A DNA stretch of 40,656 nucleotides from Przondovirus NAN33P1. Of the stretch, positions 1 to 40,656 are shown one piece after another (the stretch's first letter is position 1; the number at the start of each line of letters is the position of its first letter). The notes beneath the pieces were generated by a model, which saw only the letters and a program-made list of their open reading frames with translations, did not search any database and was not told the origin of the DNA. Both the position numbers and the translations under genes were made by a program. Location: the sequence record OZ035777.1. One strand, 5' to 3'.

Positions 1-29
1 ACTGGAAGAAAGCTAATAAGGAGTAACAT

Positions 30-287
30 ATGGACCTGATTAAGTTCCTCGAAATGTTAGACACTGAGATGGCTCAGCAGATGCTCATGGACCTGAAGAA
101 TCCTGAGAAGCGAACCCCTCAGCTGTACAACGCCATTGGTAAACTACTGGAGCGCCATAAGTTCCAAATCTCTAAGCTGACCCCTGACGTTAACATCTTA
201 GGCGGACTGGCTGAGGGTCTGGAGGCTTACAACTCCAAGGTGGGCGCGGATGGTCTGACAGACGACGATACGTTCACCCTACAGTGA
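30..287 (+). CDS. terminase small subunit / DNA maturase A (T7 gene 18 homolog)
   Basis: 85-aa ORF, ATG at 30 preceded by SD TAAGGAG (16-22). Protein MDLIKFLEMLDT...PQLYNAIGKLLERHKFQI...GLTDDDTFTLQ is collinear with T7 gp18 as I recall it. Sits immediately upstream of Rz and the terminase large subunit. Confidence 0.9.
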   Translation: MDLIKFLEMLDTEMAQQMLMDLKNPEKRTPQLYNAIGKLLERHKFQISKLTPDVNILGGLAEGLEAYNSKVGADGLTDDDTFTLQ

Positions 288-383: not shown

Positions 384-830
384 ATGCTGGAAATTACAAA
401 GAGAATCGTCCCGTATCTTGTGGTTATCATGGTGTTCGCCTTCGGGTGGCACTTTGGGTCACAATCCACGGACACCAAATGGAAGGAGGTAATACAGAAT
501 GAGTACGTTCAGAAGCAAACAGCTAGAGCTGAGACTCAGAAAGCGATTGACGCAGTATCGGCTAAGTACCAAGCAGACCTTGAAGGGCTGGAAGGCAGCA
601 CTGATAGGATTATTGCTGATTTGCGTAGCGACAATAAGCGGCTGCGCGTCAGAGTCAAACCTACCAGTGTCGCCGCAGGCCCAGACGGTCGATGCCTCGT
701 TGATGGTTCCGTCGAACTACACGAAGCAACTGCTCGAAGTCTTATCGCAATAACCCAGAAGGCCGACCTCAAAGAGAAGGCCCTACAGGACACAATTCGC
801 AAACTTCAAGGGAAAGGAGGTGAACATTGA
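384..830 (+). CDS. Rz-like i-spanin (T7 gene 18.5 homolog)
   Basis: 148 aa, ATG 384 with SD GGGAGG. N-terminal TM helix ([17 protein letters not shown]) then periplasmic coiled-coil region; collinear with T7 gp18.5 (…[10 protein letters not shown]…DRII(A/S)[14 protein letters not shown]…ALQDTIR). Stop TGA 828-830 overlaps the terminase start. Confidence 0.88.
499..753 (+). CDS. Rz1-like o-spanin lipoprotein, embedded in the +1 frame of Rz (T7 gene 18.7 homolog)
   Basis: 84-aa ORF entirely inside the Rz gene in another frame. ATG 499 with SD GGAAGGAGG (481-489). Hydrophobic stretch ending in a lipobox-like ISGC, then a Pro-rich periplasmic tail. Classic embedded Rz/Rz1 arrangement. Confidence 0.7.
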   Translation: MSTFRSKQLELRLRKRLTQYRLSTKQTLKGWKAALIGLLLICVATISGCASESNLPVSPQAQTVDASLMVPSNYTKQLLEVLSQ

Positions 831-2584
831 GTAACTCTCAGCAAGCCAAGAACGCCTTAATCATTGCGCAACTGAAGGGTGACTTTGTCGCCTTTCTCTT
901 CGTGCTATGGAAGGCCCTGAACCTGCCGGAACCAACCAAATGTCAAATCGACATGGCCAAGTGTCTGGCAGACCCAAAGAACAAGAAGTTCATCCTTCAG
1001 GCTTTCCGTGGTATCGGGAAGTCGTTCATCACGTGTGCGTTCGTAGTGTGGACCCTGTGGCGTGACCCTCAGTTAAAGATATTGATTGTCTCAGCCTCAA
1101 AGGAACGTGCGGACGCTAACTCCATCTTCATCAAGAACATCATCGACTTGTTGCCTTTCCTGAGTGAGCTTAAGCCTCGCCCCGGTCAGCGTGACTCCGT
1201 GATTAGCTTCGATGTAGGCCCTGCCAAGCCGGACCACAGCCCGTCAGTTAAGTCTGTGGGTATTACAGGTCAGCTTACTGGTAGCCGTGCCGATATCATC
1301 ATTGCGGATGACGTGGAGATTCCCGGTAACTCTGCAACCCAAGGTGCCCGCGAGAAACTCTGGACGCTGGTTCAGGAGTTCGCCGCACTGTTGAAACCTC
1401 TGCCGACTAGCCGTGTTATCTATCTGGGGACCCCTCAGACCGAGATGACGCTCTACAAGGAACTTGAGGACAACCGTGGGTACTCGACGATTATCTGGCC
1501 TGCACAGTATCCCCGCTCCAAAGAGGAAGACCTGTACTACGGCGACCGTCTGGCTCCGATGCTCCGCATTGAGTACGATGAGGACAAAGAGGGCCTAAGT
1601 AGCCAACCTACCGACCCGGTGCGATTCGACTCCATGGACCTTCAGGAACGTGAGGTGGAATACGGCAAGGCTGGCTATACGCTTCAGTTCATGCTCAACC
1701 CGAACCTCAGTGACGCCGAGAAGTACCCTCTACGCCTCCGTGACGCTATCGTGTGCGGTCTACAGATGGACAAGGCCCCAATGCACTACCAGTGGCTTCC
1801 GAACCGTCAGAACCGCAATGAGGAGCTTCCTAACGTGGGCATGAAGGGTGACGAGATTTACTCCTTCCATACAGCCTCAAGTAACACTGGTGCGTATCAG
1901 GGTAAGATTCTGGTCATTGACCCAAGTGGTCGCGGTAAGGATGAGACTGGCTGGTGCGTTCTATACACCCTCAACGGCTACATCTACTTGATGGACGCTG
2001 GTGGTACTCGTGGTTACGAAGAGAAGTCCCTTGAGTTCCTCGCTAAGAAGGCTAAGCAGTGGCAGGTGCAGACTGTGGTCTTCGAGAGTAACTTCGGTGA
2101 CGGTATGTTCGGTAACGTGTTCCAGCCTGTGCTCCTGAAGCATCACCCAGCGCAACTCGAAGAGATTCGTGCTCGTGGTATGAAAGAGGTCCGTATCTGC
2201 GATACCCTTGAGCCTGTACTGGCAAGTCACCGCTTGGTTATCCGTGATGAGGTAATCCGTCAGGACTACCAGACAGCACGCGATGCAGACGGTAAGCACG
2301 CTCTGAAGTACAGCCTGTTCTACCAGATGACCCGTATGAGCCGTGAGAAGGGCGCTGTGGCACATGACGACCGACTTGATGCGTTAGCATTGGGTGTCGA
2401 GTTCCTACGCTCTACGATGCAGCAAGACGCTGTGAAGATAGAGGCTGAGGTACTTCAGGAGTTCTTGGAGTACCACATGGAGAAACCTCTGAGTAACATC
2501 TCCCAGTTCCGGGCCACAAGCAGTAACGGTGTGGACATCCGGTGGGAAGACGATGGGGATGACTCTATGTTCATCTCATGGTGA
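827..2584 (+). CDS. terminase large subunit / DNA maturase B (T7 gene 19 homolog)
   Basis: 585 aa, near-collinear with T7 gp19 (…[17 protein letters not shown]…[15 protein letters not shown]…[14 protein letters not shown]…[16 protein letters not shown]…). Start is TTG at 827 (the frame is closed by TGA at 821-823) with SD AAGGAGG at 814-820. Confidence 0.95.
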
Positions 2585-2664
2585 TTATGCAGTGATTGTG
2601 CATAAGGATTCATTAGGCCAAGGAAGGCCACTTTTGGAAAACTCTAAGCATAACAGACACTTGG

Positions 2665-2687
2665 AATTAGGTAGCACTATAGGGAGA
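2665..2687 (+). promoter_or_regulatory. phage RNAP promoter (phi-OR-like, after gene 19)
   Basis: AATTAGGTAGCACTATAGGGAGA, exact match to the 23-bp consensus shared by 13 sites in this window; predicted +1 is G at 2682. Position matches T7 phi-OR. Confidence 0.8.
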
Positions 2688-2827
2688 GACCCAAGGTTAC
2701 ATACTATAAGACTACTTAAAGTTTCATTCATATAGATATGCACTTTAAGTCTCCTCTATGAGAGAGGGTAGTGATGATAATATCACCCTCTAACTATAAG
2801 ACACTAGAGCCAACATAAGGAGGACCT

Positions 2828-2977
2828 ATGCGCTTACTGTTAACCTTACTGCGCCATAGGACTACTTGGCGATTTCTGCTGGTACTTGCTGGTGCCCTTG
2901 GGGCTTCACTGGTTACTCAGCAGCAACTCAGTGGACTGGAGACTCTCGTGTGCTCTCTACTCACTTGTAGCGATTAG
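2828..2977 (+). CDS. gene 19.5-like small protein
   Basis: 49-aa ORF not in the supplied track (<60 aa): MRLLLTLLRHRTTWRFLLVLAGALGASLVTQQQLSGLETLVCSLLTCSD. ATG 2828 with SD TAAGGAGG (2816-2823), stop TAG 2975-2977. Last gene before the genome end, as T7 gene 19.5. Confidence 0.6.
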   Translation: MRLLLTLLRHRTTWRFLLVLAGALGASLVTQQQLSGLETLVCSLLTCSD

Positions 2978-3161
2978 GGTCTTCCTGACGCGCTAGGGAT
3001 TCCGTAGTGATGCTTATCAGCATACACCACTCCATCCCTCTACAGTCAATACTTAAAGTTAACCTTAGGTGATTCATTGGGTCCACCTACGGGTCTATGC
3101 AATGACCTGAGGACTACCTGAGGTTACCTTTAAGAATATGACATAAAGTTCTGAGCGTACA

Positions 3162-3342
3162 TCTCATAGTTTACACTTTTGGTTATCCCCCCCGGTACCC
3201 TCTCAGTCCACCCAAAGTAACCATAGGCCACCCTAAACCTTCGGTTTAACCTTAGGTGGGACTGATGGGAAACCTTTGGTGATACTATATGTTGTGGTGA
3301 GTGGGACCTTGGGATACTATATGTTGATGTCTCTGTGTCCCT
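3162..3342 (+). repeat. predicted terminal repeat region (single collapsed copy) with the physical left genome end near 3162
   Basis: 3162 begins TCTCATAGTTTACAC (T7 left end is TCTCACAGTGTACGG); a C7 run, ACCTTCGGTT, and ...TGTCTCTGTGTCCCT|ATCTGTT at 3329-3348 parallel the T7 terminal repeat and its right boundary as recalled from memory. Boundaries are approximate. Confidence 0.4.
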
Positions 3343-3471
3343 ATCTGTTGGTACTCATTAAGTCACACCTGAGGTAACTACCTGAGGTAATACCGGAGAC
3401 CATATACCTTAGGTTAACCGATGGTACATTAGGTTGAGACTCTTAGATAGTGGTTATCCAGTCATTTACAC

Positions 3472-3494
3472 AATTAGGTATCACTATAGGGAGA
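3472..3494 (+). promoter_or_regulatory. phage RNAP promoter (phi-OL-like, left end)
   Basis: AATTAGGTATCACTATAGGGAGA, one mismatch to consensus (G to T at -8); +1 G at 3489. Lies just upstream of the host-type early promoters, as phi-OL does in T7. Confidence 0.65.
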
Positions 3495-3571
3495 CACTCT
3501 GAGTATTACTAAGAGACCATCACCATAAAGACAACCATCACTATAGGTCTACTTAAAGTTAACTTAGAGTA

Positions 3572-3600
3572 TTGACATTAAGAATACACTGTGAGACTAT
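3572..3600 (+). promoter_or_regulatory. host sigma70-type early promoter (T7 A1 homolog)
   Basis: -35 TTGACA 3572-3577, 17-bp spacer, -10 GACTAT 3595-3600. Upstream AGAGTATTGAC is identical to the T7 A1 promoter upstream region as recalled. Confidence 0.6.
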
Positions 3601-3704
3601 AGCAACCGTTGAGAGACACAACGCTACCAACCACTAGCATACTTCGAGTTACTAGATGGATGCTGAAGGGTCTCAAGTAGCTATCAACCGGCATACGAAA
3701 GTGG

Positions 3705-3733
3705 TTGACTCAACGATGAACAAGTAGTAAGAT
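3705..3733 (+). promoter_or_regulatory. host sigma70-type early promoter (A2/A3-like)
   Basis: -35 TTGACT 3705-3710, 17-bp spacer, -10 TAAGAT 3728-3733; about 175 bp upstream of the first early gene. Confidence 0.5.
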
Positions 3734-3907
3734 GCACCACAGATTCACGAAGTATCGCTCTTTTACAATATGGATTAGCTGACATGTACATCACTCATCA
3801 CTTAGTGTTTAACTAGTGGTTACATTCAGGTCTCTGGCAAGGTACGTCCTGTCACCCTGAGAGTAGCCACACTGATAACCACTAATGTAACATTGAGGAT
3901 ATACACC

Positions 3908-4375
3908 ATGATTCACACGAAAGAACCAGCCAACAAAGTATTTGTATTCGTTACCGCTTACCGTGGGTACGAGTCACTCGAAGTTAACGAGAAGGTACTC
4001 AAGGGCCTCATTCGCACCATTAAGACCTATCCGGGAGCGTATGGCAACATTCGTGATGAGAACGTACAAGGATGCTTTAAGGAGGCTGGTATACCTGAGG
4101 CAACGCAAGAGCGCACGCTTAAGGTGGAATGTACCGTCAAACAAGCGGCTGAGCTGTCATGGTTAGCATGTAAGACCTACCATCAAGACGCTGTACTGGT
4201 GGTTAACTCACAGACTCACACGGCCTCTCTGTGGTCTATCGAGGACAAGGGCGAATACCCAATGGTATACCCATGCTTGAAAGAGGTGTCTTTGGGTGGC
4301 ACGCTGCAACAGGTTGATGCACCTAAGGGTGAATGCTATTCGGTAATCGACGGGCAATACTGGGAGGTGGTGTAA
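3908..4375 (+). CDS. S-adenosylmethionine lyase (T3 gene 0.3 SAMase homolog, anti-restriction)
   Basis: 155 aa from ATG 3908 (SD GAGGA 3895-3899). MIHTKEPANKVFVFVTAYRG...SQTHTASLW... is collinear with the T3 SAMase as recalled (MIFTKEPANVFYVLVSAFRS...SQTHTAGLV). First early gene. Confidence 0.8.
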   Translation: MIHTKEPANKVFVFVTAYRGYESLEVNEKVLKGLIRTIKTYPGAYGNIRDENVQGCFKEAGIPEATQERTLKVECTVKQAAELSWLACKTYHQDAVLVVNSQTHTASLWSIEDKGEYPMVYPCLKEVSLGGTLQQVDAPKGECYSVIDGQYWEVV

Positions 4376-5192: not shown

Positions 5193-6212
5193 ATGAACTA
5201 CACCGACATGCAAGAACGCTTAGACGTCATCCGTAACCTACCAATCTGTGAACTCGACAAGCGCCAACCGCTATTGGTTGCACTCATCGCGGACATTGTG
5301 AACTACGAGACGTCTGACGGTGACGATACAGCTAGCAGCTGTGGTCTGGAAAGTCAGTACTACTGGCAAACACTGAAGATTAAGGCCAAAGACGCCGGGT
5401 TTAACCTGCTGGGTAATGGTCACTTCAGCGCAGCGTTTAAGCACGAGCTACTACCGGGTAGGGTCATCAAGGTTGGCTTTAAGAAAGAAGACTCTGGGGC
5501 CGCTTACGTAGCATTCTGCCGGATGCATCAAGGTCGTGACGGTATTCCTAACGTCTATCACGTAGCGCGTCACGCTGGGTGCTACACGGTGGTACTAGAT
5601 GAGTTGTTACCGTGTCAACGCTACGAGGATGATGACCACGACCATTATGCAGACTTAGCGTTTCAATTCGTTGAGTGCACAGGCTACGACCATGAGGATT
5701 ACCGCAAGGATGACCAGCCGTTCATCGAAACGTGCCAGATGATTCGCAAGTTCTTCTACGGGATTGCGTCCTTTGATATGCATAGTGGTAACATCATGTT
5801 CACCAAAGACGGCAAGCCAGTGATTACCGACCCGGTGTCATTCTCGCATGACCGCGAACGTGAGTCGTTCTCACTGGAACCTGAGGAACTGCTCGCAGAG
5901 ATTGAGCAGATAGCGCACGATAAGATGATTGAACGCTGCAAGCGCAACAAGGCTAAGCGTGACCCGAACGGGGAGCTGCGCATCGCACGCCGTAAGGCCA
6001 ATAAGGAACGTCGGGCTGCCAACAAGGCACACGCTAGGTGGCGCAAGGAGCGCGAACGTGAACGTGAGCAGTATCACGTAGAAGCCTTAAAGGCAGACAT
6101 AGCGAGCATTGAAGCGCGCGTTCCGGTGTGGTGCAGGGGACCGGGCCTAGCGATACAAATGGGCAAGCCACTACCAATCGACAACTACCTTCAGGCTAGA
6201 CTTATGGGTTAA
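5193..6212 (+). CDS. serine/threonine protein kinase, host shutoff (T7 gene 0.7 homolog)
   Basis: 339 aa; LPICELDKRQ...AGFNLLGNGHFSAAF...RVIKVGFKKEDSGAAY(V/T)AFCRM.QGR.GIPNVY.V.RHAGCYTVVLD...IRKFF.GIASFDMHSGNIMF...ITDPVSFS is collinear with T7 gp0.7, followed by a basic Arg/Lys-rich C-terminal region. Confidence 0.92.
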   Translation: MNYTDMQERLDVIRNLPICELDKRQPLLVALIADIVNYETSDGDDTASSCGLESQYYWQTLKIKAKDAGFNLLGNGHFSAAFKHELLPGRVIKVGFKKEDSGAAYVAFCRMHQGRDGIPNVYHVARHAGCYTVVLDELLPCQRYEDDDHDHYADLAFQFVECTGYDHEDYRKDDQPFIETCQMIRKFFYGIASFDMHSGNIMFTKDGKPVITDPVSFSHDRERESFSLEPEELLAEIEQIAHDKMIERCKRNKAKRDPNGELRIARRKANKERRAANKAHARWRKEREREREQYHVEALKADIASIEARVPVWCRGPGLAIQMGKPLPIDNYLQARLMG

Positions 6213-6281: not shown

Positions 6282-9002
6282 ATGAACGCATTAAACATTG
6301 CACGTAATGACTTCTCAGAGATTGAACTGGCCGCTATTCCGTACAACATCCTCAGCGAGCACTACGGGGACAAACTGGCACGTGAGCAGTTAGCACTCGA
6401 ACATGAAGCGTACGAGCTGGGCGAGCAGCGTTTCCTGAAGATGCTGGAACGTCAGGTTAAAGCTGGTGAGTTCGCTGACAACGTGGCCGCTAAGCCGCTG
6501 GTCTTAACGTTGCACCCACAGTTAACCAAGCGTATTGACGACTGGAAGGAGGAGCAAGCAAACGCTCGCGGTAAGAAGCCTCGCGCATACTATCCGATTA
6601 AGCACGGTGTGGCCTCAGAGTTAGCCATTAGCATGGGCGCTGAGGTGCTCAACGAGAAGCGCGGAGTGTCCAGTGAGGCAATCGCACTGCTAACCATTAA
6701 GGTAGTCTTAGGGACGCTCACAGACGCCTCAAAGGCCACCATCCAGCAGGTATCCTCTCAGTTAGGTAAGGCCCTTGAGGATGAGGCCCGCTTCGGTCGT
6801 ATTCGTGAGCAGGAAGCCACCTACTTCAAGAAGAACGTAGCGGACCAGCTGGACAAGCGCGTAGGCCACGTGTACAAGAAGGCTTTCATGCAGGTTGTCG
6901 AGGCCGATATGATTTCCAAAGGGATGCTGGGTGGTGACAACTGGGCGAGCTGGAAGACCGACGAGCAGATGCACGTGGGGACCAAGCTGCTAGAGTTACT
7001 CATTGAGGGCACTGGTCTGGTGGAAATGACCAAGAACAAGATGGCCGATGGCTCCGACGATGTGACCAGTATGCAGATGGTCCAGCTGGCTCCGGCCTTT
7101 GTGGAACTCCTGAGCAAACGAGCAGGCGCACTCGCAGGTATCAGCCCGATGTACCAGCCGTGCGTAGTCCCTCCGAAACCTTGGGTTGGAACTGTGGGTG
7201 GAGGCTACTGGTCAGTCGGTCGTCGCCCGCTGGCACTGGTGCGTACCCACTCCAAGAAGGCACTGCGCCGCTATGAAGACGTGCACATGCCTGAGGTGTA
7301 CAAAGCAGTCAATCTCGCGCAAAACACGCCGTGGAAGGTGAACAAGAAGGTGCTGGCGGTAGTCAACGAGATTGTCAACTGGAAGCACTGCCCGGTGGGT
7401 GACGTCCCGGCGATTGAGCGCGAAGAATTACCACCACGCCCGGACGATATCGATACCAACGAGGTGGCACGCAAGGCTTGGCGCAAGGAGGCCGCAGCGG
7501 TCTACCGTAAGGACAAGGCACGACAGTCTCGCCGTTTGTCAATGGAGTTCATGGTTGCACAGGCCAACAAATTCGCTAACCATAAGGCCATCTGGTTCCC
7601 ATACAACATGGACTGGCGTGGACGTGTGTACGCTGTTAGCATGTTCAACCCGCAGGGTAACGACATGACTAAGGGTATGCTGACACTGGCCAAGGGCAAA
7701 CCGATTGGTCTCGATGGGTTCTACTGGCTGAAGATTCACGGTGCAAACTGTGCAGGCGTCGATAAGGTTCCTTTCCCTGAGCGCATCAAGTTCATCGAAG
7801 AGAACGAGGGCAACATTCTGGCGAGCGCAGCCGACCCACTGAATAACACTTGGTGGACCCAGCAGGATTCGCCGTTCTGTTTCCTAGCGTTCTGCTTTGA
7901 GTATGCAGGCGTTAAACATCACGGCCTGAATTACAACTGCTCGCTGCCGCTGGCGTTCGATGGGTCATGCTCTGGGATTCAGCACTTCAGCGCAATGCTC
8001 CGCGATTCCATCGGTGGCCGTGCGGTAAACCTGCTGCCATCTGATACCGTGCAGGATATCTACAAGATTGTGGCCGATAAGGTCAACGAGGTGCTCCACC
8101 AGCACGTTGTCAACGGGTCTCAGACGGTGGTCGAGCAGATTGCAGACAAGAAGACTGGGGAGTTCCGCGAGAAGGTAACACTGGGTGAGTCCGTGCTGGC
8201 TGCTCAGTGGTTGCAATATGGTGTTACCCGTAAGGTGACTAAGCGTTCGGTCATGACGCTGGCGTACGGTTCCAAAGAGTTTGGCTTCCGCCAGCAAGTT
8301 CTTGAGGACACCATTCAGCCAGCTATTGATAACGGCGAGGGCTTGATGTTTACGCACCCTAACCAAGCGGCTGGCTATATGGCTAAGCTGATTTGGGACG
8401 CTGTTACCGTGACCGTAGTGGCCGCTGTCGAGGCTATGAACTGGCTGAAGTCTGCTGCTAAACTGCTGGCCGCTGAAGTCAAGGACAAGAAGACCAAAGC
8501 GGTGCTCCGTAAGCGCTGCGCAATCCACTGGGTAACACCAGACGGCTTCCCGGTGTGGCAGGAATATCACAAGCGCGACCAAGCGCGCCTGAAGCTGACG
8601 TTTCTAGGTCAGGCCAACGTGTTCATGACGTACAACAAAGGGGAAGCCAAAGAGATTGACGCACATAAGCAGGAGTCAGGAATCGCTCCTAACTTTGTGC
8701 ACTCACAGGATGGTAGTCACCTGCGCATGACCGTAGTGCACGCCAACGAGGTCTACGGGATTGACTCCTTCGCGCTCATTCACGACTCCTTCGGGACCAT
8801 TCCGGCAGATGCTGGGAATCTATTTAAGGCAGTCCGTGAGACGATGGTAAAGACCTACGAGGATAACGATGTGATTGCAGACTTCTATGACCAGTTCGCT
8901 GACCAGCTGCACGAGTCTCAGCTCGATAAGATGCCTGAGGTACCAGCCAAAGGGGACCTGAATCTGCGCGATATCTTAGAGTCTGACTTTGCGTTCGCGT
9001 GA
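6282..9002 (+). CDS. single-subunit DNA-directed RNA polymerase (T7 gene 1 homolog)
   Basis: 906 aa (the size I recall for K11 RNAP; T7 is 883). Collinear with T7 RNAP throughout, including the C-terminus ...IHDSFGTIPADA.NLFKAVRETMV.TYE..DV.ADFYDQFADQLHESQLDKMP..PAKG.LNLRDILESDFAFA. Confidence 0.98.
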   Translation: MNALNIARNDFSEIELAAIPYNILSEHYGDKLAREQLALEHEAYELGEQRFLKMLERQVKAGEFADNVAAKPLVLTLHPQLTKRIDDWKEEQANARGKKPRAYYPIKHGVASELAISMGAEVLNEKRGVSSEAIALLTIKVVLGTLTDASKATIQQVSSQLGKALEDEARFGRIREQEATYFKKNVADQLDKRVGHVYKKAFMQVVEADMISKGMLGGDNWASWKTDEQMHVGTKLLELLIEGTGLVEMTKNKMADGSDDVTSMQMVQLAPAFVELLSKRAGALAGISPMYQPCVVPPKPWVGTVGGGYWSVGRRPLALVRTHSKKALRRYEDVHMPEVYKAVNLAQNTPWKVNKKVLAVVNEIVNWKHCPVGDVPAIEREELPPRPDDIDTNEVARKAWRKEAAAVYRKDKARQSRRLSMEFMVAQANKFANHKAIWFPYNMDWRGRVYAVSMFNPQGNDMTKGMLTLAKGKPIGLDGFYWLKIHGANCAGVDKVPFPERIKFIEENEGNILASAADPLNNTWWTQQDSPFCFLAFCFEYAGVKHHGLNYNCSLPLAFDGSCSGIQHFSAMLRDSIGGRAVNLLPSDTVQDIYKIVADKVNEVLHQHVVNGSQTVVEQIADKKTGEFREKVTLGESVLAAQWLQYGVTRKVTKRSVMTLAYGSKEFGFRQQVLEDTIQPAIDNGEGLMFTHPNQAAGYMAKLIWDAVTVTVVAAVEAMNWLKSAAKLLAAEVKDKKTKAVLRKRCAIHWVTPDGFPVWQEYHKRDQARLKLTFLGQANVFMTYNKGEAKEIDAHKQESGIAPNFVHSQDGSHLRMTVVHANEVYGIDSFALIHDSFGTIPADAGNLFKAVRETMVKTYEDNDVIADFYDQFADQLHESQLDKMPEVPAKGDLNLRDILESDFAFA

Positions 9003-21796: not shown

Positions 21797-23404
21797 ATGG
21801 CAGAAGTTAAACTCGAAGGCTTCGCAGAGGAGGGAGCCAAGGCGGTATACGACCGTCTGAAGAACGACCGACAACCTTATGAGACACGAGCAGAGTCCTG
21901 CGCTCAGTACACGATTCCCTCACTGTTCCCTAAGGACTCCGATAACGCCTCAACCGATTATACGACTCCGTGGCAATCCGTAGGTGCACGTGGACTGAAC
22001 AACCTAGCGTCCAAGCTGATGCTGGCCCTGTTCCCGATGCAGTCATGGATGAAGTTGACCATTAGTGAATACGAAGCGAAGAACCTTCTGGGTGACGCTG
22101 AGGGTCTCGCTAAGGTCGATGAGGGTCTCTCAATGGTAGAGCGCATCATCATGAACTACATCGAGTCCAACAGTTACCGAGTGACTCTCTTTGAGTGCTT
22201 GAAGCAACTGTGTGTGGCCGGGAACGCGCTGCTGTACTTACCGGAGCCTGAGGGTTATACCCCTATGAAGCTCTATCGACTGAACTCGTATGTGGTACAG
22301 CGAGACGCTTTCGGTAACGTACTCCAGATTGTCACCCTAGACAAGATTGCGTTTAACGCTCTCCCTGAGGATGTCCGCAGCCAAGTGGAAGCAGCCCAAG
22401 GTGAGCAGAAGGAAGACGCTGAGATTGACATCTACACCCACGTGTATCTGAACGAAGCCGGGGATGGTTACTCGAAGTACGAAGAGGTTGCCGAAGAGGT
22501 AGTACCGGGCAGCGAAGCTGAGTACCCTCTCGAAGAGTGTCCATACATTCCGGTCCGTATGGTCCGCATCGACGGTGAATCCTACGGACGTTCCTACGTG
22601 GAAGAGTATCTGGGAGACCTAAAGTCCCTAGAGAACCTCCAAGAGTCTATCGTGAAGATGGCAATGATTACCGCCAAGGTTATCGCTCTGGTAGACCCCG
22701 CAGGTATCACTCAGGTCCGCCGACTCACGGCAGCCCAATCTGGCGCGTTCGTACCGGGCCGTAAGCAGGACATTGAGTTCCTCCAATTGGAGAAGTCCGG
22801 TGACTTTACCGTAGCGAAGAACGTAAGCGACACCATTGAGGCTCGCCTCTCGTATGCCTTTATGCTCAACAGTGCGGTACAACGTACAGGCGAGCGAGTC
22901 ACAGCCGAAGAGATTCGGTACGTGGCGTCAGAGCTGGAAGATACCCTTGGCGGTGTCTACTCGATTCTCTCGCAGGAACTCCAGCTGCCTCTGGTAAGAG
23001 TGCTCCTGAAGCAACTACAAGCCACGCAGCAAATCCCGGAGTTACCTAAAGAGGCCGTCGAGCCAACTATCAGCACTGGCCTTGAGGCTATCGGACGCGG
23101 TCAGGACCTTGACAAGCTGGAGCGGTGCATTAACGCATGGTCTGCCCTTAAGGCTCTCGAAGGTGATGATGATCTCAACTTGGCTAACCTCAAGTTGCGA
23201 ATTGCTAACGCTATCGGACTCGACACAGCTGGTATGCTTCTCACTCAGGAAGAGAAGAACGCCCTTATGGCACAGCAAGGTGCTCAGATTGCTACACAGC
23301 AAGGGGCCGCTGCGTTGGGTCAAGGGATGGCCGCTCAGGCTACTGCAAGTCCTGAGGCGATGGCAGCTGCTGCTGATTCCGTAGGTATGCAGCCGGGTAT
23401 GTAA
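21797..23404 (+). CDS. portal (head-to-tail connector) protein (T7 gene 8 homolog)
   Basis: 535 aa, long runs identical to T7 gp8 (…YETRA..CAQYTIPSLFPKDSDNASTDY.TPWQ.VGARGLNNLASKLMLALFPMQ.WM.LTISEYEAK...; C-terminus AAQATASPEAMAAAADSVG.QPG). Confidence 0.98.
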   Translation: MAEVKLEGFAEEGAKAVYDRLKNDRQPYETRAESCAQYTIPSLFPKDSDNASTDYTTPWQSVGARGLNNLASKLMLALFPMQSWMKLTISEYEAKNLLGDAEGLAKVDEGLSMVERIIMNYIESNSYRVTLFECLKQLCVAGNALLYLPEPEGYTPMKLYRLNSYVVQRDAFGNVLQIVTLDKIAFNALPEDVRSQVEAAQGEQKEDAEIDIYTHVYLNEAGDGYSKYEEVAEEVVPGSEAEYPLEECPYIPVRMVRIDGESYGRSYVEEYLGDLKSLENLQESIVKMAMITAKVIALVDPAGITQVRRLTAAQSGAFVPGRKQDIEFLQLEKSGDFTVAKNVSDTIEARLSYAFMLNSAVQRTGERVTAEEIRYVASELEDTLGGVYSILSQELQLPLVRVLLKQLQATQQIPELPKEAVEPTISTGLEAIGRGQDLDKLERCINAWSALKALEGDDDLNLANLKLRIANAIGLDTAGMLLTQEEKNALMAQQGAQIATQQGAAALGQGMAAQATASPEAMAAAADSVGMQPGM

Positions 23405-23425
23405 TTAGGTAGCACTATAGGGAGA
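23403..23425 (+). promoter_or_regulatory. phage RNAP promoter (phi-9-like)
   Basis: AATTAGGTAGCACTATAGGGAGA, exact consensus; +1 G at 23420; overlaps the portal stop codon. Confidence 0.8.
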
Positions 23426-30039: not shown

Positions 30040-32294
30040 TGGCCAGTAAACTAGAACAAGCATTGAACCAGATACCACAGGCCGGGTCTACTCGAATCCG
30101 TGGTGGCGCAGCGTCCATGCAGTATCGCCCAGTGACCATTCAACAGGAGGGTGCCCGCCAGTCCAACCTAGTGCAGTCCTTGGCGAAGTTTGGGGCAGCA
30201 ATGGGTGAGGCGGCAGACGCCTACGATAAGCGACAGCGGGACAAGGCTGAGGAGCGGTCCGACGAGATTATCCGCAAGTTGACCCCAGAGCAGCGACGAG
30301 AGGCAATCAAGAATGGGACCCTGCTGTATCAGGATGACCCGTACGCTATGGAGGCCCTACGGTTCAAGACTGGCCGTAATGCTGCGTTCCTCATAGACGA
30401 CGAAGTGGCACAGAAGGTTCAGAACGGTGAGTTCCGCACTCGTACCGAGATGGAAGAATACAGACACAAGCGGTTGACCGAAGGTGCCAACGAGTACGCT
30501 GAGCAGTTCATGATTAACCCTGAGGACTCTGAGTTCCAGAGGGGGTTCAATGCGAACATCACCGAGCGTAACATCTCACTGTATGGTAAGCACGATACAT
30601 TCCTGAGCGAACAGGCACAGAAGGGTGCCATACTGGCCTCTAAGGTGGAGTTGTCAGGCGTACTTAAAGACCCACAGGTTCTGGCGCGTCCAGAGTCCGG
30701 TGAGTTCTTCCAGCGCTACATTGACAATGCACTTAAGACCGGGAGTATTCCTAGCGATGCTCAAGCCCAGCAGGTCATCATCGGGTCGCTCAACGACGTC
30801 ATCCAGCGTCCGGGTGCTACCAACTTCTTGCAGAGCCTTGAGGGCCGTCCGGTCACCCTTAACGGGAAGACCACGACCTACAAGGAACTTATGGGAGAGG
30901 AGCAGTGGAACGCCCTGATGGTCAAGGCCCAGTCAACCCAGTTCGACAATGACGCTAAGTTGTCCGAAGGTTTCCGCCTTGGGATCACCAGTGCGTTGAA
31001 CCAAGACGACACCAGCAAGGGCTGGGAGATGCTTCAGGGTGCCAAGGCAGAACTGGATCGTCTGCAACCCGGTGAACAGATGACACCCGAGCGTGAGCGC
31101 CTGATTCAAGCTGAGGAACAGATGCAAGCCCGTTTCCGTCAGGAGGCCCAAGCGGCAGCCAAGGAGATGGACAAGCGTCAAAAGACCATTAACAAGAATC
31201 GGGTCATCGACCAGCAGTTCACCAAACGCATCAACGGGCAGTACGTGTCCACCAGCTACAAGGACATGCCTACCAACGAGAACACTGGAGAGTTCACTCA
31301 CAGTGACATGGTGAACTACGCTAACGGGAAGCTGGCTGAGATTGACCAGATGCAGCTCACGGAGCAACAGAAGGACCGCATGAAGCTGAGCTACCTACGG
31401 GCAGACTCAGAGGGTGGAGCCTTCCGTACTGTTGTAGGCCAGATGGTCACCGACGCTGGGTCTGAATGGTCTGCCGCTGTGATTAACGGTAAGTTACCAG
31501 AGGACACCACGGCGTTGAACAAGCTGCGGACCATGCGTAACACCGACCCGGACCTCTTCGCTGCGCTATACCCAGATAAGGCGGACCTGTTCCTGACGAT
31601 GGACATGATGGATAAGCAGGGCATTGACCCGCAGATTCTCATAGACGCTGACCGTTCCCGCCGCAGTCTCACCAAGGAGATGCAGTACGAGGATGATAAG
31701 GCGTGGGCGTCCCTGAAGAACAACTCAGAGTCTCCCGAGCTGTCCCGCATTCCAGCTAGTCTGGATGGCATGGCCCGTAAGATTTACGACAGCGTCAAAT
31801 ACCGGACAGGTAACAGCGACATGGCTATGCAGCAGGTAGACAAGTTCCTCAAGGAATCCACTGTGACTTTCAAAGGTGATGACGTGGATGGCGATACCAT
31901 TGGTATTATCCCGAAGAACATCCTACAGGTCAGTGATGACCCTAAGAGCTGGGAGCAAGGCCGAGACATTCTCGAAGAAGCCCGTAAGGGAATCATTGCG
32001 GCTAACCCTTGGGTGACCAACAAGCAGCTGACGATGTACCAGCAGGGTGATTCTATCTACATGATGGACACCACTGGGACTGTTCGCATCCGCTATGATA
32101 AGGAGCTACTGACTCGAACCTATCAGGAACAGCAGCAGCGACTGGCCAAGGAAGCCGAAGAGAAGGCACTGAAGGAAGCAACCAAGCGTGCACCTATCGC
32201 CGCAGCCACTCAGGCCCGTAAGGCCGCTGGTGAGCGTGTCCGTGCGAAACGTAAAGCCACTCCGAAGTTCATTTATGGAGGTGGCGATGAGTAA
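30039..32294 (+). CDS. internal virion (core) protein C (T7 gene 15 homolog)
   Basis: 751 aa (T7 gp15 is 747 aa); ATG overlaps the gene 14 stop (TAATG); helical, charged protein at the syntenic position. Confidence 0.93.
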   Translation: MASKLEQALNQIPQAGSTRIRGGAASMQYRPVTIQQEGARQSNLVQSLAKFGAAMGEAADAYDKRQRDKAEERSDEIIRKLTPEQRREAIKNGTLLYQDDPYAMEALRFKTGRNAAFLIDDEVAQKVQNGEFRTRTEMEEYRHKRLTEGANEYAEQFMINPEDSEFQRGFNANITERNISLYGKHDTFLSEQAQKGAILASKVELSGVLKDPQVLARPESGEFFQRYIDNALKTGSIPSDAQAQQVIIGSLNDVIQRPGATNFLQSLEGRPVTLNGKTTTYKELMGEEQWNALMVKAQSTQFDNDAKLSEGFRLGITSALNQDDTSKGWEMLQGAKAELDRLQPGEQMTPERERLIQAEEQMQARFRQEAQAAAKEMDKRQKTINKNRVIDQQFTKRINGQYVSTSYKDMPTNENTGEFTHSDMVNYANGKLAEIDQMQLTEQQKDRMKLSYLRADSEGGAFRTVVGQMVTDAGSEWSAAVINGKLPEDTTALNKLRTMRNTDPDLFAALYPDKADLFLTMDMMDKQGIDPQILIDADRSRRSLTKEMQYEDDKAWASLKNNSESPELSRIPASLDGMARKIYDSVKYRTGNSDMAMQQVDKFLKESTVTFKGDDVDGDTIGIIPKNILQVSDDPKSWEQGRDILEEARKGIIAANPWVTNKQLTMYQQGDSIYMMDTTGTVRIRYDKELLTRTYQEQQQRLAKEAEEKALKEATKRAPIAAATQARKAAGERVRAKRKATPKFIYGGGDE

Positions 32295-35300: not shown

Positions 35301-36276
35301 CATTCTGGACACTGCCCGTCAGGGTGTGCTCGGGGATGTGGCTGGTGCTGCCCTCGGCGGTAAGGGTTCCAAGTTCGGTAAGGAGAACTTCCTCAAAGCT
35401 GCCTCTATCAGTCCAGAGCAGTGGAAGGGCATCAAGCAACTCTTTGTTGACCATGCGACTCGTGATGCCAACGGACAGTTCACCATCAAGGACAAGAAGG
35501 CGTTCAGTCAAGACCCGAGAGCGATGGACCTGTGGCGTCTTGCCGATAAGGTTGCTGATGAGACCATGCTGAGGCCTCACAAGGTATCCCAGCAGGATTC
35601 CAAGGCGTATGGTGCTGGTGTCAAGATGGCTATGCAGTTCAAGAACTTCACCATCAAGTCACTCAACGCTAAGTTCATTCGGTCCTTCTACGAGGGCTAC
35701 AAGAACAACCGTGCCATCGACATGGCCCTGACCCACGTGTTGTCTATGGGTATCGCTGGGACTTACTTTGCGATGCAGGCCCATGTGAAGGCTTACGGAC
35801 TCCAAGAGGCTCAACGTAAGGACTACCTGAAGAAAGCTCTTAACCCGACTATGCTGGGCTACGCAGCGTTGACTCGAAGTTCCCACACTGGTGCCCCGCT
35901 GTCTATCGTTTCGATGATGGCTGGTGCCGCTGGATTCCAAGACGCCAACATGCTGCGCTCCACCATCTTACCTAAGGAGGAACAGTTCCAGAAGAAAGAT
36001 GGAGCGTCCAAAGGTCGAGCCGAGTCGAGCAACCTTGCGGGTAACTTAGGGTCTCAGGTCCCAGCGCTGGGTTACGTAGGGAACGTCATTGCGACCGCTA
36101 AGAACGCTTATGGTGTTGCTACAGCGCCTAACAAGCCGACTGAGCGTGACTACATGACTGGCCTGATGAACTCCACCAAGGAGCTTGTACCTAACGACCC
36201 GCTCACCCAGCAGCTCATAATGAAAATCTATGAGGCAAACGGTGTGACCATCAAGCAACAGCCTAAACCTAACTAA
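32311..36276 (+). CDS. internal virion protein D with N-terminal lytic transglycosylase domain (T7 gene 16 homolog)
   Basis: 1321 aa (T7 gp16 is 1318 aa); N-terminal SLT-like domain (...SDYDG.FQKAADA.GVSYDLLRK...ES.F.P.A.SKTGP.G.MQFTKATA...LAYNQGEG) and extensive collinearity to the C-terminus (...MTGLMNSTKELVPNDPLTQQL..KIYEANGV). Confidence 0.96.
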   Translation: MSYDKSKPSDYDGMFQKAADAHGVSYDLLRKLSFNESSFNPKAVSKTGPKGIMQFTKATARSMGLNVTDGDDDGRYNPELAIDAGAKLLASLVKKYDGDELKAALAYNQGEGPAGAPQLQAYDKGDFRSISEEGRNYMRKLLDVAKSPNSGALEAFGGITPKGKGIPAEDAFKGIAKTGKVGTALPESHGFDVEGVAQEAPNTPYAKDFWEKTGTTLDEYNARSTFFGFGDAAEAQLQNSTLGVAFRAARADDGYDVFKDTMTPTRWNSYVPSKEDLQKLRDSGLPPSYYGVVTGGDGENWDALIKLAKDNFAADQRAAEAGTGAKLAAGVVGAGVDPLSYVPLVGVTGKGIKVVNKALRVGAQAGALNVASEGIRTSIAGGEAHYADAALGGLLFGSGMSVLSDAVAAGIRKTRGVESVNEFAGPALRMEARETAINTGGHDTSTLPPENFSFEQNHGGVPFADHPTEEGAVVLANGSILSDTNPLNPRTQRDFAEIDPERAAPGIKLGGFTEIGLKTLGSKDAGVRAIAQDLVRSPTGMQSGSSGKFGATASDIHERLHATDQRMYNQLYDAVDRAMKDPEFSIGEQKMSRRAIRQEVYKRAALAIERPELQADLTKGEREVMDLLKEHFDTKRELMEQPGIFGNANAVSIFPGSRHKGTYIPNVYDRGAKELMTQKLGGPEGLQQAIAQSWLTSYRVRPEVKARVDEYLMELNGYKSVDQVTPEVVQKHAMDKAYGISHTEDFTASSVIDDNITGLVGIENNSFLEARNMFDSDIPVTLPDGSTFSVNDLRDFDMARIIPAYDRRVNGDIAIMGGSGKTTKQLKDEIMALDKRAERKGQLKGEVEALKDTVKILTGRARRNNDTAFETAMRSLNDLAFFAKNFYMGPQNLTEIAGMLAKGNVKAMLHGIPTLRDLATRTSPVSGSELRELHGALFGKELDQLIRPGREDIVQRIREASDTSGAMASVIGTIKFGTQELSARSPWTKMLNGTANYILDTARQGVLGDVAGAALGGKGSKFGKENFLKAASISPEQWKGIKQLFVDHATRDANGQFTIKDKKAFSQDPRAMDLWRLADKVADETMLRPHKVSQQDSKAYGAGVKMAMQFKNFTIKSLNAKFIRSFYEGYKNNRAIDMALTHVLSMGIAGTYFAMQAHVKAYGLQEAQRKDYLKKALNPTMLGYAALTRSSHTGAPLSIVSMMAGAAGFQDANMLRSTILPKEEQFQKKDGASKGRAESSNLAGNLGSQVPALGYVGNVIATAKNAYGVATAPNKPTERDYMTGLMNSTKELVPNDPLTQQLIMKIYEANGVTIKQQPKPN

Positions 36277-36297
36277 TTAGGTAGCACTATAGGGAGA
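36275..36297 (+). promoter_or_regulatory. phage RNAP promoter (phi-17-like)
   Basis: AATTAGGTAGCACTATAGGGAGA, exact consensus; +1 G at 36292; overlaps the gene 16 stop. The transcript starts with an 8-bp hairpin GGGAGACC/GGTTTCCC (36292-36311). Confidence 0.8.
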
Positions 36298-38869: not shown

Positions 38870-38882
38870 CTAAGGAGACAGT

Positions 38883-40478: not shown

Positions 40479-40656
40479 ATGCTGTCCCTAGACTTCAACA
40501 ACGAAGTTATCAAGGCGGCTCCCATTGCGGGGGTCGCTGGGGCTGACGGTGTAGCGAGGCTCTTTTGGGGCCTCTCACTCAACGAGTGGTTCTACGTCGC
40601 GGCAATCGCCTACACAGTGGTTCAGATTGGTGCCAAGGTAGTCGATAAAATCATTG
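40479..40656 (+). CDS. class II holin (T7 gene 17.5 homolog), 3-prime truncated by the window edge
   Basis: ATG 40479 with SD AAGGAGG (40469-40475). MLSLDFNNEVIKAAPIAGVAGADGVARLFWGLSLNEWFYVAAIAYTVVQIGAKVVDKI is near-identical to T7 gp17.5 (MLSLDFNNELIKAAPIVGTGVADVSARLFFGLSLNEWFYVAAIAYTVVQIGAKVVDK...). The ORF runs off the end of the window. Confidence 0.9.
   Translation, partial: MLSLDFNNEVIKAAPIAGVAGADGVARLFWGLSLNEWFYVAAIAYTVVQIGAKVVDKII

What the first reader, a model, noticed from the sequence alone, without database searches (positions are those of the whole stretch)
2978..3500. Genome ends and terminal repeat lie inside the window; the contig is a circular permutation
Gene 19.5 ends at 2977 and the first early promoter lies at about 3472. 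In between, 3162 starts TCTCATAGTTTACAC (compare the T7 left end TCTCACAGTGTACGG), followed by a C7 run, ACCTTCGGTT and ...TGTCTCTGTGTCCCT|ATCTGTT at about 3342, mirroring the T7 160-bp terminal repeat and its boundary as recalled. Short repeats flank it (ACCTGAGG at 3107/3119/3369/3381; CCTTAGGT at 3063/3249/3409), analogous to the T7 concatemer-junction repeats. The mature genome is therefore probably linear with a roughly 181-bp direct terminal repeat collapsed to one copy here. The window should be re-oriented to start at about 3162, and the true genome is about 181 bp longer than the unique sequence.
Basis: partly seen in the sequence, partly recalled or inferred. Interest (0 to 1): 0.5.

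Follow-up and report, generated by a model that had tools for sequence, protein, structure and literature searches.

The report
Collapsed terminal repeat of T7-like phage
The window is a complete Klebsiella T7-like (Przondovirus) phage genome written out from an arbitrary start.

Summary
The observation and its interpretation are both essentially correct, and the feature is already known.

- **Sequence check.** TCTCATAGTTTACAC starts at 3162 and ...TGTCTCTGTGTCCCT ends at 3342, followed by ATCTGTT.
- **Match to relatives.** These 181 bp align end to end (93-96%) with base 1 to ~180 of at least 18 Klebsiella przondoviruses that carry two copies per record. Several annotate them as left and right terminal repeats (K11, KpV289, Whistle, Oda, Tokugawa and others).
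- **Junction form.** Concatemer junctions built in silico from relatives are collinear with window 2601-3800, with one repeat copy.
- **Circular permutation.** The window ends cut the holin gene. Joining them restores a 67-aa ORF identical to the KpV289 and Whistle holins.
- **Predicted virion DNA.** It starts at 3162 and is 40,837 bp long (±1-2).

- The promoter at 3472-3494 is a phage-RNA-polymerase promoter (phiOL homologue), not a host early promoter. Host-type promoters start at about 3572.
- ATCTGTT at the repeat boundary is the known class II pause signal for the phage RNA polymerase.
- Some short-repeat coordinates are off by 1-3 nt.

The physical ends of this particular isolate remain inferred, because no reads are available.

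The parts
30..287 (+). Gene 18, terminase small subunit (85 aa). The contig appears to have been rotated to start about 30 nt upstream of it.
   Evidence: PHROG 1351, E=4e-42. Records of the same style (OZ035736, OZ035814) share the start and end convention.
827..2584 (+). Gene 19, terminase large subunit (585 aa). This is the enzyme that cuts concatemers at the repeat.
   Evidence: PHROG 38, E=4e-129. Collinear with the K11, KpV289 and Whistle terminase genes.
2665..2687 (+). Phage-RNA-polymerase promoter, homologue of phiOR. It sends transcription rightwards across the repeat.
   Evidence: Perfect match to the window's own promoter consensus TAGGTAGCACTATAGGGAGA: 12 copies, all on the plus strand, 0.08 expected. 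K11 annotates phiOR at the homologous place, between genes 19 and 19.5.
2828..2977 (+). Gene 19.5 (49 aa), the last gene before the right genome end.
   Evidence: PHROG 2193, E=2e-22. The homologous genes are annotated gp19.5 in K11 and KpV289. Its 3' end aligns to T7 gene 19.5.
2995..3039 (.). Conserved imperfect inverted repeat (AGGGATTCCGTAGTG ... CACCACTCCATCCCT, loop TATC at 3015-3018), 145 bp left of the repeat. It is a candidate hairpin site for repeat duplication.
   Evidence: Present in K11 and, at the homologous position, in T7 (39568-39608), where the inner stem sequence differs. It is predicted as a stem in the DNA fold. Any role is inferred.
3045..3161 (.). Right-flank short-repeat block, analogous to the short-repeat array I recall beside the T7 right repeat. 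It holds CTTAAAG, CCTTAGG, two CCTGAGG and CATAAAG units and a 22-26 nt inverted repeat (3045-3070 with 3116-3141). It ends with the conserved CATAAAGTTCTGAG(C/T)G.. sequence just before the cut site.
   Evidence: DNA fold z=-3.25. Nearly invariant among przondoviruses and partly conserved in T7.
3162..3342 (+). Single collapsed copy of the direct terminal repeat (181 bp). Position 3162 is the predicted first base of virion DNA and 3342 (possibly 3343) the predicted last base.
   Evidence: Identity is 93-96% to the fetched Whistle, Oda, Tokugawa and KpV289 repeats and 84.5% to K11, and both boundaries coincide. Nine IMG/VR contigs start exactly at the homologous TCTCAC, and five stretches end at ...TGTCCC(T). 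There is one copy in the window.
3342..3350 (+). Concatemer-junction signal TATCTGTTG, the class II pause/termination signal (H-ATCTGTT) for the phage RNA polymerase.
   Evidence: Identical to the K11 feature annotated 'concatemeric junction' at 180..188. It is the only ATCTGTT on the transcribed strand of the whole window. The signal is described in bioRxiv 10.1101/2021.01.11.426313 and 10.64898/2026.02.12.705533.
3351..3471 (.). Left-flank short-repeat block, analogous to the short-repeat array I recall beside the T7 left repeat. It holds CATTAAG, two ACCTGAGGTAA units and ACCTTAGGTTAA. It is 168 bp shorter than in K11.
   Evidence: The alignment to K11 shows three gaps of 25, 75 and 68 bp.
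3472..3494 (+). Phage-RNA-polymerase promoter AATTAGGTATCACTATAGGGAGA, homologue of phiOL.
   Evidence: Matches the phage promoter consensus. It aligns to K11 phiOL at 479-501.
3572..3608 (+). First host (sigma-70 type) early promoter, A1-like: TTGACA, 17 nt, GACTAT.
   Evidence: Read from the sequence. It aligns to the K11 feature 'host RNAP promoter' at 581-617. The simple promoter scan did not report it.
3705..3741 (+). Second host early promoter, A2-like: TTGACT, 17 nt, TAAGAT.
   Evidence: The promoter scan found it at 3705-3733. It aligns to the K11 'host RNAP promoter' at 715-751.
40479..40656 (+). Five-prime part of the holin gene (gene 17.5). It continues at window 1-26, so the window ends fall inside a gene.
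   Evidence: Joining the window end to its start gives a 67-aa ORF 100% identical to the KpV289 and Whistle holins. The flanks are contiguous in both relatives.

Best explanation
The window is a complete genome of a Klebsiella-infecting Przondovirus (T7-like, subfamily Studiervirinae). It was assembled as a circle and opened about 30 nt upstream of the small-terminase gene. Region 2978-3500 is therefore the concatemer-junction form of the genome ends: the right-end unique DNA, one copy of the 181-bp direct terminal repeat (3162-3342), then the left-end unique DNA.

In the virion the DNA is predicted to be linear. It would start at 3162 (TCTCATAG...), run around the permuted contig, and end at 3342 (...TGTGTCCCT) with a second copy of the repeat. 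The total would be about 40,837 bp.

The mechanism is inferred from T7 and T3:
1. Replication yields head-to-tail concatemers with one repeat per junction.
2. The phage RNA polymerase, transcribing rightwards from the phiOR-type promoter (2665-2687), pauses at the class II signal TATCTGTT (3342-3349) on the right edge of the repeat.
3. Terminase (gp18 and gp19) is recruited there and cuts at the two repeat boundaries.
4. The repeat is duplicated by local DNA synthesis, possibly primed through the conserved inverted repeat at 2995-3039, so that each packaged genome carries the repeat at both ends.

Short-read or circularising assemblers merge the two copies into one. That is why the window holds a single internal copy.
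For: **Shown here**
- The window is a przondovirus. It matches PMBT12 at 96.9% over 99% of 20.6 kb, and it encodes the T7-type gp18, gp19, gp19.5, gp0.7 and gp1 set.
- Window 3162-3342 aligns base for base with the terminal repeats of at least 18 relatives, starting at record base 1.
- Exact terminal repeats of 179-181 bp were confirmed in Whistle, KpV289, K11, Oda and Tokugawa. Their boundaries coincide with 3162 and 3342.
- In-silico concatemer junctions from Oda and Tokugawa align to window 2601-3800 as single collinear matches.
- Nine IMG/VR contigs begin exactly at the homologous TCTCAC.
- The window ends are contiguous in relatives and split the holin gene.
- The window has one repeat copy.
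- phiOR-type and phiOL-type promoters flank the repeat as in K11.
- ATCTGTT is unique on the transcribed strand.

**From the literature**
- Przondovirus terminal repeats are 180-183 bp, were Sanger-validated for Oda and Tokugawa, and are routinely deleted or assembled mid-genome by short-read assemblers (PMC10438801).
- ATCTGTT is the class II signal found at the T7 concatemer junction.
- The polymerase pause at the junction is linked to gp18/gp19 and packaging (PMC3276506).
- A hairpin intermediate has been reported on T7 concatemers (Chung et al. 1990, as cited in PMC4281155 and PMC4925675).
Against: - No sequencing reads or virion DNA for this isolate were available, so its termini are inferred by homology only.
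- Position 6 of the predicted left end is T (3167). All 46 IMG/VR przondovirus copies have C. T3 naturally has T there, so this is unlikely to matter.
- The right boundary is uncertain by 1 nt. Records disagree between ...CCCT and ...CCCTA. This is probably because run-off Sanger sequencing adds a non-templated A (PMC4925675).
- The C7 homopolymer may be miscounted, which would change the length by 1-2 nt.
- The mechanistic steps (pause, terminase recruitment, hairpin-primed duplication) are carried over from T7 and T3. They were not tested in any przondovirus here.
Confidence: 0.93

Rival explanations
1. The phage has T7-type direct terminal repeats, but in this isolate the cut sites are shifted. 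The repeat would then differ from 3162-3342 by more than a couple of bases, for example because of the C-to-T change at 3167 or the shortened flanking repeat array.
For: T at 3167 is absent from 46 of 46 IMG/VR przondovirus copies. The left-flank region is 168 bp shorter than in K11. Repeat lengths of 177-186 bp appear among database records.
Against: Both boundary sequences are otherwise conserved from T7 and T3 to przondoviruses: a 20/20 match at the right boundary, and TCTCATAGTT identical to T3 at the left. The length variation among relatives comes from internal indels, not from moved boundaries.
Confidence: 0.04
2. The genome is packaged by a headful mechanism, or has cohesive ends. In that case there would be no fixed direct terminal repeat, and the resemblance to T7 termini would be vestigial.
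For: Only that no read data were examined here.
Against: Close relatives (93-96% identical in this segment) have physically mapped direct repeats (PMC10438801). The terminase is the T7 gp18/gp19 type. The boundary motifs and the junction pause signal are strictly conserved.
Confidence: 0.01
3. The window is a truly circular or integrated element (plasmid-like or prophage). On this reading the segment would be an ordinary intergenic region and not a pair of collapsed ends.
For: The sequence closes on itself without overlap.
Against: The genome is a strictly lytic T7-like phage type, with all mapped genes on one strand. Every relative that was mapped physically is linear with terminal repeats. 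Circular closure is the expected product of assembling terminally redundant DNA.
Confidence: 0.01

Closest known systems
Direct terminal repeats of Klebsiella przondoviruses (K11, KP32, KpV289, Oda, Tokugawa, Whistle)
   Same: - Same position, between gene 19.5 and phiOL.
- Same length class (179-183 bp).
- 84-96% identity.
- Identical boundary sequences, the same junction signal TATCTGTTG, and the same flanking inverted and short repeats.
   Different: - T instead of C at the sixth base.
- C7 instead of C5-C6.
- The region between the repeat and phiOL is 168 bp shorter than in K11.
- Here the repeat is present once and internally, because of how the contig was assembled and rotated.
Terminal repeat and concatemer junction of phage T7 (160 bp) and T3 (231 bp)
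   Same: - Left end TCTCA(C/T)AGT.
- Right boundary ...TGTGTCCCT|ATCTGTT with the class II pause signal.
- phiOR upstream and phiOL downstream, followed by the host promoters A1-A3.
- Arrays of short repeats on both sides.
- An inverted repeat just after gene 19.5.
   Different: - Interior repeat sequence is only ~58-59% identical, and the length differs.
- The short-repeat unit here is mostly ACCT(G/T)AGGT, whereas I recall the T7 unit as CCTAAAG.
- Promoter specificity is K11-like (TAGGTAGCACTATAGGGAGA).
Assembly artefact: collapsed or internalised terminal repeats in short-read phage assemblies
   Same: One internal repeat copy and a contig opened at an arbitrary point, here inside the holin gene. 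This is what Elek et al. 2023 describe for przondoviruses. At most about 118 of the 392 matching INPHARED records hold two copies.
   Different: Nothing substantive.

Membership tests
Studiervirinae (T7-like) direct terminal repeat / concatemer junction | The genome is a T7-type podophage with a gp18/gp19 terminase and a single-subunit RNA polymerase. | tested here: met
   PHROG hits for gp18, gp19, gp19.5, gp0.7 and gp1. Whole-genome collinearity with Whistle and KpV289.
Studiervirinae (T7-like) direct terminal repeat / concatemer junction | The repeat lies between the last gene (19.5) and phiOL plus the early promoters. | tested here: met
   Gene 19.5 ends at 2977, the repeat is 3162-3342, and phiOL is 3472-3494.
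Studiervirinae (T7-like) direct terminal repeat / concatemer junction | Conserved left-terminal sequence TCTCA(C/T)AGT. | tested here: met
   3162-3171 is TCTCATAGTT, identical to T3 bases 1-10 and one mismatch from T7 and K11.
Studiervirinae (T7-like) direct terminal repeat / concatemer junction | Conserved right boundary ...TGTGTCCCT followed by the class II pause signal ATCTGTT. | tested here: met
   The 20-mer 3330-3349 is identical to T7 and K11. It is the only plus-strand ATCTGTT in the window.
Studiervirinae (T7-like) direct terminal repeat / concatemer junction | Homologous segment is present at both physical ends of relatives whose termini were mapped experimentally. | tested here: met
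   Oda and Tokugawa carry exact 181-bp repeats at both ends. [quoted passage not shown]
Studiervirinae (T7-like) direct terminal repeat / concatemer junction | Two copies at the ends of this phage's own virion DNA (twofold coverage, read-start pile-ups). | not testable with these tools
   No reads or virion DNA. The window holds one copy.
Genus Przondovirus | High nucleotide identity across the genome to recognised members. | tested here: met
   96.9% over 99% of 20.6 kb to PMBT12, and 96.7% over 93% to KpV767. Identity to KpV289 and Whistle is 84-98% across most of the genome. Only part of the genome was used as a query, and no formal intergenomic distance was computed.

The most novel reading that the evidence does not exclude
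The most novel reading still open is that this isolate's terminase cuts differently from other przondoviruses. The terminal sequence is T3-like (T at the sixth base, unseen in 46 other przondovirus copies) and the left-flank repeat array is strongly shortened. If cutting or packaging efficiency did differ, the isolate would be a natural variant for dissecting which bases of the T7-type packaging site matter.
Probability: 0.04. Interest if true: 0.3.

Novelty: already known. Interest (0 to 1): 0.08.

Why it matters
The value is practical, not conceptual.
- The deposited or assembled sequence is a rotated circle that lacks one copy of the terminal repeat.
- A correct linear record would start at 3162, end with a second copy of 3162-3342, and be about 40,837 bp.
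- This affects genome-length reporting, comparative alignment, the spurious small ORFs sometimes called across the repeat, and any engineering or rebooting of the phage from synthetic DNA.
- It adds no new biology. T7-type terminal repeats, their junction pause signal and their loss during assembly are all documented.

Tried and rejected
- **Terminal overlap.** I looked for an exact overlap between the window's own ends, which would be an assembly signature. There is none of 8 nt or more.
- **Second repeat copy or artefactual repeats.** I looked for a second repeat copy and for the ~79-bp artefactual repeats that Elek et al. describe. The only repeats of 25 nt or more are the phage promoters.
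- **Structured RNAs.** Rfam (E up to 1) and tRNA scans of 2400-4100 found nothing.
- **Exact source record.** No INPHARED record is identical. The best is PMBT12 at 96.9%, so I could not read the termini from this phage's own deposited record.
- **T variant elsewhere.** TCTCATAGTTTACACTTTTGG has 0 hits in IMG/VR.
- **ATCTGTT depletion as evidence of function.** One plus-strand copy against roughly 2.5 expected per strand is compatible with function but not statistically remarkable.
- **Covariation in the inverted repeat 2995-3039.** Only two sequence types exist (przondovirus-like and T7-like), so covariation evidence is weak. I did not build a model.
- **Hairpin position in T7.** I could not read Chung, Nardone and Hinkle 1990. 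My recollection is that the T7 hairpin maps about 190 bp left of the right repeat, near T7 39,587. That would coincide with the conserved inverted repeat, but it remains a recollection. Only the existence of the paper is documented.

Full report
**1. What is in the sequence**

- Gene 19.5 (49 aa; PHROG 2193) stops at 2975-2977.
- A stretch of about 930 bp follows with no ORF of 40 aa or more, apart from one 41-aa minus-strand ORF (2961-3086), up to the first early gene at 3908.
- TCTCATAGTTTACAC begins at 3162, the C7 run is 3187-3193, and ACCTTCGGTT is 3237-3246.
- TGTCTCTGTGTCCCT occupies 3328-3342 and is followed by ATCTGTT at 3343-3349.
- The proposed repeat 3162-3342 is exactly 181 bp.

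The short repeats are real and enriched.
- ACCTGAGG lies at 3105, 3116, 3367 and 3380, with 9 copies in the window against 1.8 expected.
- CCTTAGGT lies at 3063, 3250 and 3407, with 9 copies against 1.2 expected.
- The broader unit ACCTNNGGT has 8 of its 20 plus-strand copies within 2978-3500. I defined that motif after seeing the data.
One CCTTAGGT copy lies inside the repeat, not beside it.

**2. What the window is**

The window encodes the T7-type set: small terminase (30-287), large terminase (827-2584), gp19.5, a gene-0.3-position SAM-related protein (3908-4375), the gp0.7 kinase (5193-6212) and the single-subunit RNA polymerase (6282-9002).

[quoted passage not shown] No record in the phage collection is identical.

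A 20-nt promoter consensus, TAGGTAGCACTATAGGGAGA (K11-like), occurs 12 times, always on the plus strand, against 0.08 expected.

**3. The segment is the terminal repeat of this phage group**

- BLAST of 3162-3342 found 392 phage records.
- In at least 18 distinct phages that hold two copies per record, query base 1 aligns to record base 1 and the match runs about 180 bp. Many of these records annotate the stretch as a left or right terminal repeat (K11, KpV289, KpV767, K5, K5-2, Whistle, Emom, Mera, Oda, Tokugawa, Toyotomi, Speegle, Cornelius).
- I fetched Whistle, KpV289, K11, Oda, Tokugawa and T7. Exact direct terminal repeats of 181, 179, 181, 181, 181 and 160 bp were confirmed.
- Alignments of the left ends and of the DNA preceding the right repeat place both boundaries at the bases homologous to 3162 and 3342 (table).
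- In IMG/VR, nine contigs start exactly at the homologous TCTCAC, and five stretches with the motif 177-182 nt from their end finish at ...TGTCCC(T). A further 29 copies are internal, as in the window.
- T3 shows the same architecture: left end TCTCATAGTT, a 231-bp repeat, and boundary ...TGTGTCCCT|ATCTGTT.
- The 20-mer across the right boundary is identical in the window, T7 and K11.

**4. The window holds the concatemer-junction form and is circularly permuted**

- Junctions built in silico from relatives (right end, plus left end minus one repeat) align to window 2601-3800. For Oda and Tokugawa this is a single collinear match.
- Alignment to the right end of KpV289 and Whistle stops at 3342/3343. 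Alignment to their left end starts at 3162.
- Window base 40656 and base 1 are adjacent in KpV289 (37699|37700) and Whistle (37335|37336).
- Joining the window ends restores a 67-aa ORF 100% identical to the holins of both phages. The window's ends therefore lie inside a gene and cannot be physical termini.
- The window has no terminal overlap and no second repeat copy.
- Several database records, such as Przondovirus NAN33P6 with its repeat at 3163-3342, use the same rotation, starting just upstream of the small-terminase gene.

**5. Support from the literature**

- Elek et al. 2023 (PMC10438801) state that przondovirus genomes are flanked by direct terminal repeats of 180-183 bp with 84-99.7% similarity.
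[quoted passage not shown] That describes this window exactly.
- At most about 118 of the 392 matching records hold two copies (510 places in all), so the collapsed form is the commoner state in the database.

**6. Anatomy and likely mechanism**

The repeat is bracketed by two phage-polymerase promoters.
- 2665-2687 is the phiOR homologue, between genes 19 and 19.5 as annotated in K11.
- 3472-3494 aligns to K11 phiOL.
- Host-type promoters follow at 3572-3608 and 3705-3741. They align to the K11 'host RNAP promoter' features.

TATCTGTTG at 3342-3350 is identical to the K11 feature 'concatemeric junction'.
- ATCTGTT preceded by A, C or T is the class II pause/termination signal of T7 RNA polymerase. 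It occurs naturally at the T7 concatemer junction (bioRxiv 10.1101/2021.01.11.426313; 10.64898/2026.02.12.705533).
- It is the only copy on the transcribed strand of the window. On its own that is not statistically remarkable.
- The paused polymerase has been linked to gp18/gp19 and the initiation of maturation and packaging (PMC3276506).

Left of the repeat there are two inverted repeats.
- 2995-3039 lies directly after gene 19.5. T7 has an inverted repeat at the homologous place (39568-39608) with the same outer arms (AGGGAT/ATCCCT) but a different inner stem.
- A longer inverted repeat, 3045-3070 with 3116-3141, has a DNA-fold z-score of -3.25.
- A hairpin intermediate on T7 concatemers was reported by Chung, Nardone and Hinkle 1990, as cited in PMC4281155 and PMC4925675. 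My recollection that it maps about 190 bp left of the right repeat would match the first inverted repeat. I could not verify this.

The proposed sequence of events is carried over from T7 and T3 and was not shown for this phage: concatemers with one repeat per junction, a polymerase pause at the junction signal, terminase cuts at both boundaries, and local synthesis that duplicates the repeat.

**7. Remaining uncertainties**

- The right boundary is uncertain by 1 nt. T7, T3, K11 and KpV289 end at ...CCCT, whereas Whistle, Oda and Tokugawa end at ...CCCTA. The next base is A, and run-off Sanger sequencing adds a non-templated A (PMC4925675).
- The C7 run is one or two bases longer than in relatives and could be a homopolymer error.
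- Base 3167 is T, whereas 46 of 46 IMG/VR przondovirus copies have C. T3 has T there.
- The physical ends of this isolate were not observed.

**8. Verdict**

Both the observation and the interpretation are right apart from small corrections. The feature is a textbook T7-type terminal repeat in its collapsed, internalised assembly form, so it is already known and of low interest. The practical consequence is that the linear genome should begin at 3162, carry 3162-3342 at both ends, and measure about 40,837 bp.

Noticed in passing
window 40479-40656 + 1-26: The window's two ends cut the holin gene (gene 17.5). Rejoined, they give a 67-aa ORF 100% identical to the KpV289 and Whistle holins. ORF callers working on the linear contig will miss or truncate this gene.
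   Followed up: yes
window 3167: The sixth base of the predicted left end is T (TCTCATAG). All 46 IMG/VR przondovirus copies anchored on the adjacent sequence have C, and the T version has no exact hit. T3 naturally has TCTCATAGTT. This is either a rare natural variant or a base-calling error.
   Followed up: partly
window 3187-3193: The homopolymer is C7, against C6 in K11 and Whistle and C5 in KpV289. It may be a homopolymer length error, and it changes the repeat length by 1-2 nt.
   Followed up: no
window 3371-3466: The region between the repeat and phiOL is 168 bp shorter than in K11, with three alignment gaps of 25, 75 and 68 bp. The left-flank short-repeat array is therefore much reduced in this phage.
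   Followed up: partly
window 2995-3039; T7 39568-39608 (L004 669-709): An imperfect inverted repeat sits directly after the gene 19.5 stop. The outer arms (AGGGAT/ATCCCT) are conserved from T7 to przondoviruses, while the inner stem differs (ATGCT/AGCAT against TGAT/ATCA). It may be the hairpin site of the T7 concatemer-processing model.
   Followed up: partly
window 3045-3070 / 3116-3141: A 22-26 nt inverted repeat lies 20-115 bp left of the cut site. It is built from the short-repeat units, is conserved in K11, and has a DNA-fold z-score of -3.25.
   Followed up: partly
window 3343-3349 versus 31075-31081 and 31117-31123: ATCTGTT occurs once on the transcribed (+) strand, at the repeat boundary, and twice on the minus strand. 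About 5 copies on both strands together are expected by chance.
   Followed up: yes
L001, L007-L010 versus L002, L005-L006 (right ends of records): Deposited przondovirus repeats disagree by one base at the right boundary. Whistle, Oda and Tokugawa end ...CCCTA, while K11 and KpV289 (and T7, T3) end ...CCCT. This is probably the non-templated A of run-off Sanger sequencing.
   Followed up: partly
window 3472-3494 and 11 other sites (e.g. 2665-2687, 23403-23425, 36275-36297): Twelve plus-strand promoters match TAGGNNNCACTATAGGGAGA within three mismatches, and a thirteenth variant lies near 11342. Eleven of the twelve read TAGGTAGCAC. The phiOL copy reads TAGGTATCAC, and K11 phiOL also deviates there (TAGGACACAC).
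   Followed up: partly
window ~37191-40465: The tail-spike / receptor-binding region has almost no match in Whistle or KpV289, but it is covered by PMBT12, a Klebsiella oxytoca phage (99% coverage of the 20000-40656 query). This is the usual variable host-range module.
   Followed up: no
phage collection: 392 records match the repeat in 510 places, so at most about 30% of deposited relatives carry both copies. Several records annotate small 'hypothetical proteins' across the repeat, for example Whistle 117-224. These are probably spurious.
   Followed up: no
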